The position numbers were made by a program, and so were the translations under genes. A DNA stretch of 64,000 nt from Pseudomonadota bacterium (lineage in GTDB: Bacteria; Pseudomonadota; Gammaproteobacteria; UBA12402): assembly GCA_039190005.1 (NCBI GenBank), contig JBCCYM010000002.1:10285-74284 (forward strand). Direction: 5' to 3'. This document shows, one piece after another, positions 29,123 through 35,214 of the stretch (positions are counted from its first letter, which is position 1; every line of letters starts with the position of its first letter). Under the pieces are notes generated by a model that was not told where the DNA came from, did no database searches, and saw nothing but the letters and a program-made list of their open reading frames with translations.

Positions 29123-31322
29123 TTCTTTTCCGCTTTCGTTTTGTTGAACGCTTTGTTTTTTTCTTAGTCACTAATTCAAAATCGATCTGTCGCGCGTCAA
29201 GATCAACTTGTGTCACCATCACTTCGATCCTATCCCCTAAACAGTATGTTTTGCCGCTATGACATCCTTGTAGACGTTGTTTACCAATATCAAATCGATA
29301 AAAATCACCGGATAAATTACGCACATGTACCAAACCTTCAACAAAAATATTTTCTAGTTCAACAAACAGACCGAAACCAGTCACCGCTGAAATAATGCCA
29401 AAAAATTTCTCACCAACCTTATTGAGCATGTATTCACATTTAAGCCAGCTAATAGCGCTGCGGGTGGCTTCGTCCGCTCGCCGCTCAGTCATTGAACAGT
29501 GTTCAGCCATGGCGACTAAACGTTCAACATTTATTTGCGTGTTTTCTTCTTCCTTCGATAGAATTGATTTTATGGCGCGATGGACAATTAAATCAGGATA
29601 ACGGCGTATTGGTGATGTGAAATGCAGATATTCTTTAAAACTTAAACTGAAATGACCAATATTATCGGTTGAATAAAAAGCGCGTGACATAGAGCGCAAC
29701 AACATCACCTGGATAATGTGATAATCAGGTCTGCTCGCGATCTGTTTTAACACTTCAGTATAATGTCGCGGTTCCGGTTTATCGCCGCCATTAAAATTTA
29801 GTCCCAGTTCACCTAAAAAGTGACGTAAATCATTTAGCGCTTCAGGTTTGGGGCCCGCGTGTACCCGATAGAGTGTAGGCGTCTTATGTTTATTTAAAAA
29901 TTTAGCCGCGGCAATATTCGCGCGTAACATGCATTCTTCTATAAGTTTATGCGCGTCGTTGCGTGTCTCCTGGACAATTTTTTTAATTTTTCGGTTTTTG
30001 TCAAAAACAATTTTAGTTTCAGTGGTTTCAAATGTGATCGCGCCGGCTTCCAAACGTTGTTTTGCCAGGCTTTGGTATAAGTCATATAAGGTCTGTAATG
30101 GTTGATGTAAGGCTTTGTCGATGCTGTTTTTATCAGCGTTAAAAAAATCAGCCACTTTATTATAAGTCAAGCGCGCGTGTGAATTTATGGTCGCAGAGTA
30201 AAAGTTATAGCGTGTCATTTTGCCACTTGGGGCTATCTTCATTTCACAGACAACACATAAACGGTCGACATTAGGTTTAAGTGAGCATAAATCATTGGAT
30301 AATTTTTTCGGTAGCATAGGAATGACTTTACCGGGGAAATAAACGGAATTACCGCGATTTAAAGCTTCATGGTCGAGTGCTGTGTTGGCTTGCACATAGT
30401 GGCTGACATCAGCAATGGCAACATATAAACGCCAACCCCTGATGCGCTTCTCACAATATACCGCGTCGTCAAAATCTTGGCTGTCATTGCCATCAATTGT
30501 GACAAAAGGGAGATGAGTGAGATCAACGCGATTCTGTTTATCGCTTTGATTTGGATGGCTATGGTAGTTTTCTAATAAGTGATTAATTTCTTCAGACCAT
30601 TGATAAGGTAAATCGTAATCACGTATCGCCATTTGCACTTCCATGCCTGCGGCCATATGATCACCTAAAATTTCAGTGATTTTGCCAATAGTTGGTGAAC
30701 GATGATCGGGGTAGTCGGTAATGCGTACCATGACAATTTCGCCGTCTACAGCGTTGTTTTTTTGACTTTCAGGGATAAGAATGCTTTGATTGATATACTG
30801 ATTCATTGGTTCAACAAAACCAGTTTCCCCTTTGCTGTGATAACGACCAAGAATATGCTCATAAGCACGTTCTAATACTTTAACAATAACACCTTCCTGA
30901 TGGCCATCATAGCTTGATACCGTGGCGCTGGCGAGTACAATGTCGCCGGTAAATACTTTCGCGGCTTGTTTGGCGGGCAAGCGAAGATCGGGTTTTGAAG
31001 GATTATTTGGGATAAAATAAGTCGCCCCATTTTTGCGTGTTTCGATATGTCCTTTGATTAAATGATCATCTCGACAGAGCATGTATTGTTGTTTGCCTAT
31101 TTGGATGAGCTGTCCATCGCGCACCATGGCTTTTAATCGTCTTCCCAGCGCGGTGAGTTGATTATCATCATCCAGTGCTAACAGTGTTGCCAAATTTTGA
31201 AAATTTATGCTTTTATCCTTATGTTTTTGCAAAACGTTGCAGATACATTCTCGTGATGGAATGGGATGATCATATTTTTTTGCTTCACGTTCAGCGTAAG
31301 GGTCTATGTATTTTTTGCTCAT
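29115..31322 (-). CDS. rnr: ribonuclease R
   Basis: Has an RNB domain (DGNDSQDFDDAVY..., an Asp-rich catalytic motif), cold-shock/OB N-domains and a C-terminal S1 domain with a basic tail (KKKTKRSTKRKRKRNG). The likely start MSKKYIDPYA is at 31322. Confidence 0.9.
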   Translation of the reverse strand: MSKKYIDPYAEREAKKYDHPIPSRECICNVLQKHKDKSINFQNLATLLALDDDNQLTALGRRLKAMVRDGQLIQIGKQQYMLCRDDHLIKGHIETRKNGATYFIPNNPSKPDLRLPAKQAAKVFTGDIVLASATVSSYDGHQEGVIVKVLERAYEHILGRYHSKGETGFVEPMNQYINQSILIPESQKNNAVDGEIVMVRITDYPDHRSPTIGKITEILGDHMAAGMEVQMAIRDYDLPYQWSEEINHLLENYHSHPNQSDKQNRVDLTHLPFVTIDGNDSQDFDDAVYCEKRIRGWRLYVAIADVSHYVQANTALDHEALNRGNSVYFPGKVIPMLPKKLSNDLCSLKPNVDRLCVVCEMKIAPSGKMTRYNFYSATINSHARLTYNKVADFFNADKNSIDKALHQPLQTLYDLYQSLAKQRLEAGAITFETTETKIVFDKNRKIKKIVQETRNDAHKLIEECMLRANIAAAKFLNKHKTPTLYRVHAGPKPEALNDLRHFLGELGLNFNGGDKPEPRHYTEVLKQIASRPDYHIIQVMLLRSMSRAFYSTDNIGHFSLSFKEYLHFTSPIRRYPDLIVHRAIKSILSKEEENTQINVERLVAMAEHCSMTERRADEATRSAISWLKCEYMLNKVGEKFFGIISAVTGFGLFVELENIFVEGLVHVRNLSGDFYRFDIGKQRLQGCHSGKTYCLGDRIEVMVTQVDLDARQIDFELVTKKKTKRSTKRKRKRNG

Positions 31323-31596
31323 TATATCAAATCGTTTATTTTTATAATGCAAGCATCGCATGAGTTGTGCGCTAATGCAACCTCTAAATATCTTGCTGTT
31401 ACTGTGTTTTTGTGTCAGAATAATAATGTCTCACCAAGTCAGTCTAATATAAAGCATTTTTCCTGTCTTTTAATTGTTCATTGATTCAAATAGGGCGATA
31501 CGTCATTTTTTGCAAGTCATTTCTTTCTTGCGATCCAGTTTTTAAGTGGTACAAGCGCGAGTTGCGCGTGCCAAAAACGCCGATAAGAGAAAAATC

Positions 31597-31805
31597 CATA
31601 CCCAACGCAGATCAAGATGCGAAGTAATATATAACTAAAAAAAGGTGTGAATTAGAAAATTTAGCTGTTCAGTTTGTTACCACCTTGGGACGTTCTGACC
31701 GAGAAAAACGCGAGTAATAGTTGTGCTATTGGGAGCGTTTTTCGACCGAGGAACGTTCCAAGGTGGTGACAAAATGGGCAGCTAAATTCGTATCTTGATC
31801 TGCGT
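31597..31805. repeat. A nested imperfect palindromic element about 210 bp long, with two inverted-repeat arm pairs around a central loop
   Basis: Outer arms: tacccaacgcagatcaagatgcgaa (31599-31623) and ttcgtatcttgatctgcgttgggta (31777-31801), 24/25 complementary. Inner arms: aatttagctgttcagtttgttaccaccttgggacgttctgaccgagaaaaacgc (31648-31700) and gcgtttttcgaccgaggaacgttccaaggtggtgacaaaatgggcagctaaatt (31725-31778), about 85% complementary. The loop is gagtaatagttgtgctattgggag. The left arm carries an extra roughly 30-nt insertion. Confidence 0.75.
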
Positions 31806-31830
31806 TGGGTATAATAAGAGTATCGATTAA

Positions 31831-32826
31831 ATGAGTAAAAAATTTCCACGTACAAAAGTAACACATGATTTGTTTTTTCAGCAATCTTTGATGCAGAAAT
31901 CTATCGCATTGGATTTTTTCAAAGCACATTTGCCGCGGAGTGTGCAGTCAAAAATTGATTGGAACAGTTTAACATTAGAGCCAGGACGATTTGTGGCTAA
32001 AGAATATAGAGTGCAATACAGTGATGTGTTGTATTCGGTAAGGCTTTCTGAGGAGTTAGCTTACTTATATATTCTAGCAGAACACAAAAGTTATGGTGAT
32101 CGTTTTCTGCCATTGCAATTATTAAGGTACATGTGTGCCATTTGGCAACGTTATATTGAACAGAAGAGAAAATTAGGGAAAGGACAGGGTTGTTTGCCGA
32201 TGATCTATCCACTTACATATTATCATGGTCGCCAATCGCCTTATCCGTATTCAACCGATATTCGCGATTGTTTTGCCGATAAGGCATTGGCGAAAGCGAT
32301 ATTTGATAAACCATTTCCCTTGATAGATATGACACAATACAGTGATGAAAACTTATTACAGCATGGTAGGGCATCCACATTTGAACTGTTGCAAAAGCAT
32401 ATTTTTGCCAAAGATTTATTAGAAGATATCCAGGAATTGTTGAAAAACAAGCATTTCATAGCGCTTATGCGTGAAACATCTGGTGATTATAGTTTTCAGG
32501 TGTTACAATATATGATAGAGGCAAGTGAGTCTACTCACGCTGATAAATTTTTAAAGCAATTAACCCAACAACTTCCAGAAATAGGTGATCAAATTATGAC
32601 AGTTGGACAACAACTCAGACAGCAAGGCATTGAGCAAGGTATTGAGCGAGGTATTGAGCGAGGCATTGAACAAGGTATTGAACAGGGCATTGAGCGAGGT
32701 ATTAAGCAGGGTAGGACGGTGGAAGCTATGACAATCGCAAGAACGCTCTTAAATCGGGGGATGTCACTTGAAGAAGTGGCGGAGATTACCCATTTATCTT
32801 ATGAAAAGCTTCAGAGAATTAAGTGA
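31831..32826 (+). CDS. rpn: Rpn-family (YhgA-like, PD-(D/E)XK) recombination-promoting nuclease / putative transposase
   Basis: The N-terminal block THDLFFQQSLMQKSIALDFFKAHLP...YSDVLYSV...ILAEHKSYGD matches the conserved YhgA/RpnA motifs (HDxxFK, DxLY, EHQS). The C-terminus has seven or more GIEQG/GIERG hexapeptide repeats and ends LEEVAEITHLSYEKLQRIK. Confidence 0.85.
   Translation: MSKKFPRTKVTHDLFFQQSLMQKSIALDFFKAHLPRSVQSKIDWNSLTLEPGRFVAKEYRVQYSDVLYSVRLSEELAYLYILAEHKSYGDRFLPLQLLRYMCAIWQRYIEQKRKLGKGQGCLPMIYPLTYYHGRQSPYPYSTDIRDCFADKALAKAIFDKPFPLIDMTQYSDENLLQHGRASTFELLQKHIFAKDLLEDIQELLKNKHFIALMRETSGDYSFQVLQYMIEASESTHADKFLKQLTQQLPEIGDQIMTVGQQLRQQGIEQGIERGIERGIEQGIEQGIERGIKQGRTVEAMTIARTLLNRGMSLEEVAEITHLSYEKLQRIK
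32596..32826 (+). CDS. Candidate intragenic RpnS-like small protein (77 aa), in frame within the 3' end of rpn
   Basis: The internal ATG at 32596 is preceded by AGGTGATCAAATT, a Shine-Dalgarno sequence at correct spacing. The identical SD plus ATG context is preserved in the downstream duplicate at 32948. This call is inferred from sequence only. Confidence 0.45.
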   Translation: MTVGQQLRQQGIEQGIERGIERGIEQGIEQGIERGIKQGRTVEAMTIARTLLNRGMSLEEVAEITHLSYEKLQRIK

Positions 32827-32887
32827 CATAGAATTACATGAGTAATTCTATTTTGCTTCAACATGCGAGTTTGCCTATGAGTGTACT

Positions 32888-33139
32888 GACGCTGATAGAT
32901 TTTTAGAGCAATTAACCCAACAATTTCCAGAAATAGGTGATCAAATTATGACAGTTGGACAACAACTCAGACAGCAAGGTATTGAGCAAGGCATTAAGCA
33001 GGGTATTAAACAAGGTAGGACAGCGGAAGCTATGACAATCGCAAGAACACTTTTAAATCGAGAGATGTCACTTGAAGAAGTGGCGGAGATTACGCGTTTA
33101 CCTTATGAAAAGCTTCAGCGAATTAAGTCAGAAAATTGA
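32888..33139 (+). repeat. A roughly 250-bp segmental duplication of the rpn 3' end (32535-32826). It has three instead of seven GIxQG repeats.
   Basis: About 90% nucleotide identity to 32535-32826. The difference is the number of 18-bp ggyattgagcragg repeats. Confidence 0.9.
32948..33139 (+). CDS. Free-standing RpnS-like ORF (63 aa), a duplicate of the Rpn C-terminal domain with its own SD and ATG
   Basis: MTVGQQLRQQGIEQGIKQGIKQGRTAEAMTIARTLLNREMSLEEVAEITRLPYEKLQRIKSEN. The N-terminal nuclease part of rpn has no in-frame ATG upstream of this copy. The frame opens only at 32846 after a TAA. Confidence 0.55.
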   Translation: MTVGQQLRQQGIEQGIKQGIKQGRTAEAMTIARTLLNREMSLEEVAEITRLPYEKLQRIKSEN

Positions 33140-33327
33140 TCTGAGTAGTGCAAACATTCCAAGGTTGAAATGCTATAAAATGGGTATAGGTCAGAATTTC
33201 TTTAGCAAAAACATTGTAAATAGTAGGGAGTTTATGCTATTTTACTGACTATTGTATGGCTTATCCAGGATTAATCTTCAATAAAGTGTCGTGAATTAAC
33301 GCTATCCAGATAGTAGAAATTTATATT

Positions 33328-35214
33328 ATGTCAAGAATTAAGCACCTTGCGCCGATGTTGGCGAATCAGATAGCGGCTGGTGAAGTTGTGGAACGTCCGG
33401 CATCGGTGGTAAAGGAGCTGGTTGAAAATAGCCTTGACGCCGGTAGTAAGCATATTGACATTGATATTGAAAAAGGTGGTATGCGCCTTATTCGGGTGCG
33501 TGACAATGGTATGGGTATTCATGCCGATGATTTAACGTTAGCCATTAGCCCTCATGCCACCAGCAAAATTTATACTCAGGAAGATTTGGCGCTTATCAGC
33601 AGTTTTGGCTTTCGCGGTGAGGCACTGGCGAGTATCAGTTCTGTTTCACGTTTTAACCTTACTTCGGCAACAGCGTCTGAAAACGCAGTTCAGATCAACT
33701 GTGAAGGCAAAGAAAATCATGAAATTTTGCCGGCATCACATCCTATCGGCACGACCGTTGAAGTGCGTGATCTCTTTTTCAATATACCCGCGCGACGTAA
33801 ATTTTTGCGTACCGAAAAAACCGAATTTACGCATATTGAAACATTGGTAAAACGTTTGGCATTGGCAAATTTCCCGGTGCAATTTACTTTACAGCATAAT
33901 CAAAAAACCATTTTTAATTTTTTACCAGCGCATACCGATGAACAAAAAGAACAGCGGGTTGCTAAACTCTGTGGCAAGGAATTTATGCGCCATGCTTTGC
34001 ATATTGACACGGCAGTTACGGGTATTCGATTATATGGTTGGATCGCGCAACCCAGTTTTTCACGCAGTCAAGCGGATTTGCAATATTGCTATATCAATGG
34101 CCGTATTGTGCGCGATAAAATGATCACCCATGCGGTAAAACGCGCTTATCGAGATGTGTTGTATCATGGTCGGTTTCCAGCATTTGTGATTTTTTTGGAG
34201 ATGGAACCTAAGGATGTTGATGTCAACGCCCATCCACAAAAGCTTGAGGTGCGTTTTCATCAAGGGCGTTTTGTCTATGATTTTCTTACTAAGAGTATTG
34301 AGCAGGCACTTGCCGATGTCAGACCGGCAATGCCACAATCATTTACGACATCCGCGCCGCAATCATCACCTAAGTTCTCAATGAATCATCAGCCACGTTT
34401 TAATTTTGCTGTTGAAGAGACAGTGCAAGCCTATAAGGCTTTTCATCATCCGTCGGAAGACCAGCCATATCAAAATAAGCGGCAAAGTGAAGCGACTGAT
34501 ATGCCGACAACAATGTTGCCAAAAAATGAAAAAGCGCAAATCGAAAATATTGCCACGGAAATTGCTAAGCAACAACAATCCAGCAAATTGCCGGAAACGC
34601 TTGAGCGGCGACCGTCAGCTGAGGCGTCTGATATGCCATTGGGTGTCGCCTTGGCGCAATTACATGGTGTTTATGTGCTGGCGCAGAATGATTATGGGTT
34701 GATATTGGTTGATATGCATGCCGCGCATGAGCGTATTGTTTATGAAAAAATGAAAAAAGCTTACGCCGCGCATAATATCGCCACACAGTTATTATTATTG
34801 CCGGTGACCTTAGAACTTAATGCTGAAGAAATACGCTGTGCTGAGAAGCACCAGCAATTTTTGCTTGAGCTCGGTTTAAATCTGGAATTTCTCGGCCCGG
34901 AAACACTGGTGATACGTGAAGTACCGTCAATACTGAGCGCGGACAATATCGCCCAATTACTACGTGATGTGTTATCAGAATTACTTGTTTGTCAAAGCAG
35001 CGATGAAGTCAACAGCAGAATTGATACTATATTATCAACCATGGCTTGCCATGGCGCGGTTAGAGCGAATCGCCAATTATCTTTGACTGAAATGAATAGC
35101 TTATTACGTGATATTGAAACAACTGAACGCAGTGGTCAGTGTAATCATGGACGACCAACCTGGACAGCACTGTCCATGACGGAATTGGATAAATTGTTTA
35201 TGCGCGGTCGTTAA
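33328..35214 (+). CDS. mutL: DNA mismatch repair protein MutL
   Basis: Has the GHKL ATPase motifs ANQIAAGEVVERPASVVKELVENSLDAG and DNGMGI. The C-terminal dimerisation domain is present. Length is 628 aa. Confidence 0.95.
   Translation: MSRIKHLAPMLANQIAAGEVVERPASVVKELVENSLDAGSKHIDIDIEKGGMRLIRVRDNGMGIHADDLTLAISPHATSKIYTQEDLALISSFGFRGEALASISSVSRFNLTSATASENAVQINCEGKENHEILPASHPIGTTVEVRDLFFNIPARRKFLRTEKTEFTHIETLVKRLALANFPVQFTLQHNQKTIFNFLPAHTDEQKEQRVAKLCGKEFMRHALHIDTAVTGIRLYGWIAQPSFSRSQADLQYCYINGRIVRDKMITHAVKRAYRDVLYHGRFPAFVIFLEMEPKDVDVNAHPQKLEVRFHQGRFVYDFLTKSIEQALADVRPAMPQSFTTSAPQSSPKFSMNHQPRFNFAVEETVQAYKAFHHPSEDQPYQNKRQSEATDMPTTMLPKNEKAQIENIATEIAKQQQSSKLPETLERRPSAEASDMPLGVALAQLHGVYVLAQNDYGLILVDMHAAHERIVYEKMKKAYAAHNIATQLLLLPVTLELNAEEIRCAEKHQQFLLELGLNLEFLGPETLVIREVPSILSADNIAQLLRDVLSELLVCQSSDEVNSRIDTILSTMACHGAVRANRQLSLTEMNSLLRDIETTERSGQCNHGRPTWTALSMTELDKLFMRGR

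What the first reader, a model, noticed from the sequence alone, without database searches (positions are those of the whole stretch)
31831..33139. Rpn-family nuclease with a conserved internal SD-ATG (RpnS-like gene within a gene), plus a free-standing duplicate of that small ORF
The rpn ORF has YhgA/RpnA N-terminal nuclease motifs and a GIEQG-repeat C-terminus. It contains an in-frame ATG at 32596 preceded by AGGTGATCAAATT. A roughly 250-bp downstream segment (32888-33139) duplicates exactly this SD, the ATG and the C-terminal coding region, but not the nuclease domain. The result is an independent 63-aa ORF. Its hexapeptide-repeat count differs (3 versus 7), which suggests slippage in the 18-bp repeats. 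In E. coli, Rpn proteins have been described as toxic antiphage nucleases restrained by small RpnS proteins translated from an internal start in the same frame. A locus carrying both the intragenic copy and an extra stand-alone copy would be an unusual dosage arrangement for such a toxin-inhibitor pair. As far as I know it has not been described.
Basis: partly seen in the sequence, partly recalled or inferred. Interest (0 to 1): 0.75.

Follow-up and report, generated by a model that had tools for sequence, protein, structure and literature searches.

The report
Rpn nuclease with spare antitoxin copy
This is a bacterial Rpn toxic-nuclease gene that carries its small inhibitor gene inside itself and has a second, stand-alone copy of that small gene just downstream; the layout is real, but it was already described in E. 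coli in 2023 and recurs in many bacteria, so it is an ordinary new example.

Summary
Window 31831..32826 (+) encodes a 331-aa Rpn/YhgA-family protein (Pfam PF04754, E=1e-55). It has an in-frame SD-ATG at 32596. Met256 aligns exactly with the start of E. coli RpnE-S, for which Zhong et al. detected a small protein and an initiation signal. Segment 32873..33128 duplicates the last ~300 bp of rpn at 89-91% identity and gives a 63-aa ORF (32948..33139), annotated at NCBI as a hypothetical protein.

One correction: the repeats are 12 bp, or 4 aa (GIEQ-type), not 18 bp hexapeptides. The counts of 7 versus 3 are right.

The claim that this layout is undescribed is wrong. Zhong et al. 2023 (PNAS, PMC10400941) describe downstream stand-alone rpnSs genes: ypaA after rpnE, and rpnCSs after rpnC. 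They also describe the four-amino-acid repeat variation.

In my own sample, 9 of 69 rpn genes from diverse phyla carry such a downstream copy. In every pair I compared, the repeat number differs from the upstream gene.

The downstream ORF looks maintained (dN/dS 0.15). Its model has three helices, and its best PDB match is E. coli RpnA-S.

A simple extra-dose role is doubtful. Zhong et al. found that an RpnC-S with one extra repeat no longer blocked RpnC-L.

Verdict: new member of a known kind, low interest.

The parts
31831..32826 (+). rpnL: full-length Rpn-family protein, 331 aa (NCBI MEM9242566.1)
   Evidence: ORF list; Pfam PF04754 E=1.1e-55; TIGR01784 at 91.1 bits against a cut-off of 52.1; exact match in the protein collection.
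31861..32445 (+). N-terminal PD-(D/E)XK (YhgA-like) nuclease domain, residues 11-205. Motif residues are D65 (32023-32025), E84 (32080-32082) and K86 (32086-32088).
   Evidence: Pfam match to residues 11-205. D65 and E84 are invariant in 81 homologues. Position 86 is K here and in the closest relatives, and Q in the enterobacterial proteins.
32583..32588 (+). Shine-Dalgarno-like AGGTGA, 7 nt before the internal ATG
   Evidence: Sequence. The same motif occurs in the 60%-identical relative L081, and purine-rich SD-like motifs precede the aligned ATG in other homologues, including E. coli rpnE.
32596..32826 (+). rpnS: predicted intragenic small ORF, 76 aa, same frame as rpnL
   Evidence: M256-T257 is invariant in 21 homologues and aligns with the E. 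coli RpnE-S start. Translation itself is inferred.
32621..32713 (+). 12-bp (4-aa) repeat array, 7 GIEQ-type units
   Evidence: TRF period 12, 7.8 copies; repeat family D1.
32821..32858 (+). AT-rich hairpin over the rpn stop codon, with no T-run after it
   Evidence: Inverted repeat I5; fold -14.3 kcal/mol, z=-2.1; not called as a terminator.
32873..33128 (+). Partial duplicate of the rpn 3' end, homologous to 32523..32826 minus four repeat units
   Evidence: tblastn; alignment with a 48-nt gap; direct repeats D2 and D3 at 89-91% identity.
32935..32940 (+). Duplicated SD-like AGGTGA
   Evidence: Only 2 mismatches in the 82 aligned nt around the SD, the ATG and the first 14 codons, against 15 in 138 nt of 3' coding sequence.
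32948..33139 (+). rpnSs: stand-alone small ORF, 63 aa (NCBI MEM9242567.1, 'hypothetical protein AAGA27_00730')
   Evidence: ORF; cluster look-up; partial TIGR01784 match to profile positions 218-273, E=1.8e-8; dN/dS 0.15 against the intragenic copy; three-helix model whose best PDB match is RpnA-S.
32973..33017 (+). 12-bp repeat array, 3 units (GIEQ GIKQ GIKQ)
   Evidence: TRF period 12, 3.8 copies.
31810..31815 (+). TATAAT hexamer 16 nt upstream of the rpn ATG; a possible -10 element (inference only)
   Evidence: Sequence. The promoter scan did not call it on the + strand because no -35 partner was found.

Best explanation
The locus is an Rpn 'gene-within-gene' module plus a downstream paralogue of its small gene (the rpnL/rpnS plus rpnSs layout).

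Shown here: the long ORF encodes a PD-(D/E)XK Rpn-family protein, and its C-terminal 76 codons begin with a conserved SD-ATG. The last ~300 bp of the gene (from codon 231 to the stop) were copied about 50 bp downstream. That copy keeps the SD, the ATG and an intact frame, and has diverged mainly at synonymous sites.

Inferred from E. coli work (Zhong et al. 2023): RpnL is a toxic DNA endonuclease used in antiphage defence. RpnS is translated from the internal start. It binds RpnL through the long repeat-bearing helix and blocks it.

Inferred for the downstream gene: it is translated and kept by selection. It has 3 repeat units against 7 in RpnL and RpnS, so it is probably not an efficient inhibitor of the resident RpnL. 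More likely it is a specificity variant. One possibility is a second small protein with a different helix length. Another is a spare C-terminal cassette that recombination between the ~140-150-nt direct repeats can fuse to the nuclease domain, changing the repeat number of toxin and antitoxin together. The 12-bp units themselves probably change in number by slippage or unequal recombination.
For: Family membership:
- Pfam PF04754, E=1.1e-55, and TIGR01784 above its cut-off.
- D65 and E84 are invariant in 81 homologues.

Internal start:
- M256-T257 is invariant in 21 homologues and aligns with the E. coli RpnE-S start.
- SD-like motifs precede the aligned ATG across the family.
- The repeats begin at residue 11 of the small protein, inside the 8-20 range reported for RpnS.

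The duplicate is maintained:
- In the ORF, the two copies differ by 10 synonymous and 6 non-synonymous changes, giving dN/dS 0.15.
- P=6e-4 against neutrality, and P=0.02 against a model with one neutral copy.
- In the 72 nt before the ATG, which are coding only in copy 1, all 7 changes are non-synonymous (Fisher P=0.0075).

Fold:
- The AF2 model of the 63-aa protein has helices 3-37, 42-49 and 53-62, with pLDDT 85.6.
- Rank 1 of 350,542 PDB chains is 7th0, E. coli RpnA-S (prob 0.96, TM 0.74 normalised to the target).

Precedent:
- ypaA/rpnESs and rpnCSs are described, and RpnESs protein was detected.
- The paper notes fusion of the N-domain with rpnSs.

Repeat mismatch as the rule:
- All 12 pairs I compared across phyla (the window, E. 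coli rpnE-ypaA and ten others) differ in repeat number.
- The same holds in three E. coli rpnC-rpnCSs strains.
- A one-unit mismatch abolished inhibition of RpnC-L.
Against: - There are no expression data for this uncultured organism.
- No sigma-70-type promoter was found inside rpn or before the small ORF.
- The SD is only a 4-of-6 match to the consensus.
- The selection test rests on 16 substitutions in a single genome.
- The closest relative (60% identity, L081) has no downstream copy, so conservation of the small gene across species could not be tested.
- The Foldseek E-value for RpnA-S is 0.46. The match is top-ranked but not significant on its own.
- The neighbours are housekeeping genes, not a defence island.
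- The repeat-mismatch rule was shown for one E. coli protein only.
Confidence: 0.8

Rival explanations
1. Extra antitoxin dose: the 63-aa protein binds and inhibits the resident RpnL, and so raises the antitoxin:toxin ratio.
For: The ORF has the same SD and ATG, is 90% identical in protein outside the repeat gap, and is under purifying selection. Its predicted fold matches RpnS.
Against: The repeat number is 3 against 7. In E. coli, RpnC-S with one extra unit no longer blocked RpnC-L. Every upstream/downstream pair I examined is mismatched. That would be odd if matching were needed for the copy's function.
Confidence: 0.2
2. Non-functional remnant: the segment is a decaying leftover of a partial tandem duplication, or of a second rpn gene that lost its 5' part. 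The 63-aa ORF would then be open only by chance.
For: RefSeq marks E. coli K-12 ypaA as a pseudogene, and one rpnCSs copy as 'incomplete'. No promoter was detected. The closest relative has no such copy.
Against: dN/dS is 0.15 with an intact frame, whereas the 72 nt just upstream show only non-synonymous changes. The SD and ATG are retained, with 2 of 82 mismatches around them. RpnESs protein was detected in E. coli.
Confidence: 0.12
3. Transposase reading: the Rpn protein is an ISNCY-like transposase, as many database names say. The duplicated 3' end and the upstream palindrome would then be by-products of transposition.
For: NCBIfam lists an 'ISNCY family transposase' model at E=2.3e-51, but far below its cut-off (174.7 against 583 bits). 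A 215-nt palindrome lies just upstream.
Against: No inverted repeats flank the gene: the palindrome lies wholly on one side and occurs once in the window. There is no second rpn copy in 64 kb. Zhong et al. argue against autonomous transposition for the family.
Confidence: 0.03

Closest known systems
E. coli rpnE - ypaA (rpnESs) (Zhong et al. 2023, PMC10400941)
   Same: A full-length rpn gene with an internal SD-ATG, followed on the same strand by a small gene. The small gene copies the SD, the ATG and the C-terminal domain of the upstream gene. In K-12 the two copies are 84% identical in DNA and differ by one 4-aa unit (KLEG). The internal Met aligns with Met256 here.
   Different: Here the duplicate carries about 75 nt of upstream sequence rather than about 13 nt. 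It lies about 50 nt after the stop rather than directly after it. It is 89-91% identical, and the copies differ by four units (7 against 3). RefSeq calls RpnE 'inactive', and it has EHQ where this protein has EHK. The host here is an uncultured Pseudomonadota MAG.
E. coli rpnC - rpnCSs (NCBI name 'RpnC/YadD family protein')
   Same: A downstream stand-alone small gene, present in some strains, derived from the upstream rpnC. Its repeat number and repeat sequence differ from the upstream copy.
   Different: In rpnCSs the conserved Met-Thr start is replaced (…RQTLAQWF…) and an upstream Met is annotated as the start. Here the original SD-ATG is retained unchanged.
RpnA-L / RpnA-S toxin-antitoxin (crystal structure 7th0)
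   Same: The predicted three-helix small protein has a long first helix that carries the repeats. 7th0 is the best PDB match to the model of the 63-aa ORF.
   Different: Sequence similarity to RpnA-S is too low for phmmer to detect. The full protein scores 175.9 bits against the RpnA equivalog cut-off of 583, so it is a family member and not an RpnA orthologue.

Membership tests
Rpn / YhgA-like family (Pfam PF04754, TIGR01784) | N-terminal domain matches the family profile above the curated cut-off | tested here: met
   PF04754 at 188.8 bits against a cut-off of 21, residues 11-205. TIGR01784 at 91.1 bits against 52.1.
Rpn / YhgA-like family (Pfam PF04754, TIGR01784) | PD-(D/E)XK motif residues are conserved (D … E-x-K/Q) | tested here: met
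   D65 and E84 are invariant in 81 homologues. The motif is E84-H85-K86 here, and EHQ in most enterobacterial members.
Rpn / YhgA-like family (Pfam PF04754, TIGR01784) | Orthologue of a named E. coli Rpn protein (RpnA equivalog model NF007361) | tested here: not met
   175.9 bits against a cut-off of 583. The best named relatives are 36-40% identical.
Rpn / YhgA-like family (Pfam PF04754, TIGR01784) | DNA endonuclease activity and toxicity on overexpression | not testable with these tools
   Needs expression and biochemistry.
RpnL/RpnS gene-within-gene toxin-antitoxin | In-frame internal start with an RBS at the beginning of the C-terminal domain, at the position of the starts that Zhong et al. 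confirmed experimentally for other family members | tested here: met
   ATG 32596 with AGGTGA 7 nt upstream. M256-T257 is invariant and aligned with the RpnE-S start. SD-like motifs are conserved in relatives.
RpnL/RpnS gene-within-gene toxin-antitoxin | Variable four-amino-acid repeats beginning 8-20 residues after the initiating Met | tested here: met
   12-bp period. The first unit starts at residue 11 of the small protein.
RpnL/RpnS gene-within-gene toxin-antitoxin | The small protein folds as a three-helix bundle with a long first helix (RpnA-S, 7th0) | tested here: met
   AF2 helices 3-37, 42-49 and 53-62, pLDDT 85.6. The top Foldseek hit is 7th0 (prob 0.96, TM 0.74 normalised to the target, E=0.46, so not significant alone). 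This is prediction-level evidence only.
RpnL/RpnS gene-within-gene toxin-antitoxin | Internal promoter giving a short transcript | tested here: inconclusive
   The consensus scan found only one weak + strand site, at 32194-32223, and none near 32500-32590 or 32830-32940. There are no transcript data.
RpnL/RpnS gene-within-gene toxin-antitoxin | RpnS is translated, binds RpnL and blocks it | not testable with these tools
   Needs tagging, co-expression and pull-down.
RpnL/RpnS gene-within-gene toxin-antitoxin | Location in a defence island (typical of the family, not strictly defining) | tested here: not met
   The neighbours are fmt, hemY, hemX, rlmB and rnr on one side, and mutL, a gamma carbonic anhydrase, aroG-type, pheA and tyrA genes on the other. 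PADLOC gave only weak, off-target matches.
Stand-alone downstream RpnSs (ypaA-type) | A small gene immediately downstream of an rpn gene, on the same strand | tested here: met
   32948..33139 (+), starting 122 nt after the rpn stop codon.
Stand-alone downstream RpnSs (ypaA-type) | Derived from the upstream gene's own C-terminal region | tested here: met
   89-91% DNA identity to 32526..32824. The window holds no other Rpn-like sequence.
Stand-alone downstream RpnSs (ypaA-type) | Own RBS and start codon, intact frame, and evidence of constraint | tested here: met
   Identical 13 nt before the ATG. dN/dS 0.15, P=6e-4 against neutrality.
Stand-alone downstream RpnSs (ypaA-type) | Pfam DUF4351 (PF14261) match (said by Zhong et al. 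to apply 'in some species') | tested here: not met
   No PF14261 hit at E<=1 for the 63-aa or the 76-aa protein. The precomputed domain on the long protein is PF27070, which did not appear among the hits from my Pfam copy.
Stand-alone downstream RpnSs (ypaA-type) | The protein is made | not testable with these tools
   Needs tagging or ribosome profiling.

The most novel reading that the evidence does not exclude
Downstream rpnSs copies may not be extra antitoxin. They may instead be specificity cassettes that are mismatched as a rule.

In every pair I compared, the downstream copy has a different number of 4-aa units from the upstream rpnL/rpnS. These pairs were the window, E. coli rpnE-ypaA, three rpnC-rpnCSs strains and ten loci from other phyla.

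If matching is needed for inhibition, the downstream protein cannot silence its neighbour. It could serve as a stored alternative C-terminus. A single recombination between the direct repeats would then re-register toxin and antitoxin together, which would be a variation mechanism for a defence gene. Alternatively it could act as a decoy for a phage factor that targets RpnS.

Zhong et al. mention fusions and raise recombination as the origin of these copies, but they do not test this idea.
Probability: 0.3. Interest if true: 0.5.

Novelty: new member of a known kind. Interest (0 to 1): 0.2.

Why it matters
It matters little on its own. It adds one more example, in an uncultured proteobacterium, of a layout already documented in E. 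coli. It also shows that the annotated 'hypothetical protein' MEM9242567.1 is an RpnS-type small protein.

The wider survey gives a modest general point. Downstream small copies are common: 9 of 69 rpn genes in my biased sample have one. In every pair compared, they differ in repeat number from their neighbour. That bears on the open question of what these extra copies do. It argues against a plain dosage role, provided the repeat-matching rule seen for RpnC is general.

Tried and rejected
- **PDB sequence searches.** Neither the 331-aa nor the 63-aa protein found anything meaningful (best E=0.9 and 0.53).
- **Search for strain variants.** An exact 35-nt pattern found nothing in metagenome contigs. 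A protein-based metagenome scan gave only two distant loci at 36-39% identity.
- **Genome-collection scan.** Repeat-number variation within this lineage therefore could not be examined.
- **The look-up of encoding contigs.** It had no record for either window protein.
- **Promoter and terminator scan.** It found no convincing signals for the small genes.
- **Rfam.** It found nothing real in 31300-33400.
- **PADLOC.** It gave only weak, off-target matches.
- **Transposon reading.** I considered and rejected it: no flanking repeats and a single copy.
- **Later literature.** A second literature search found nothing on rpnSs function beyond the 2023 paper and its commentary.
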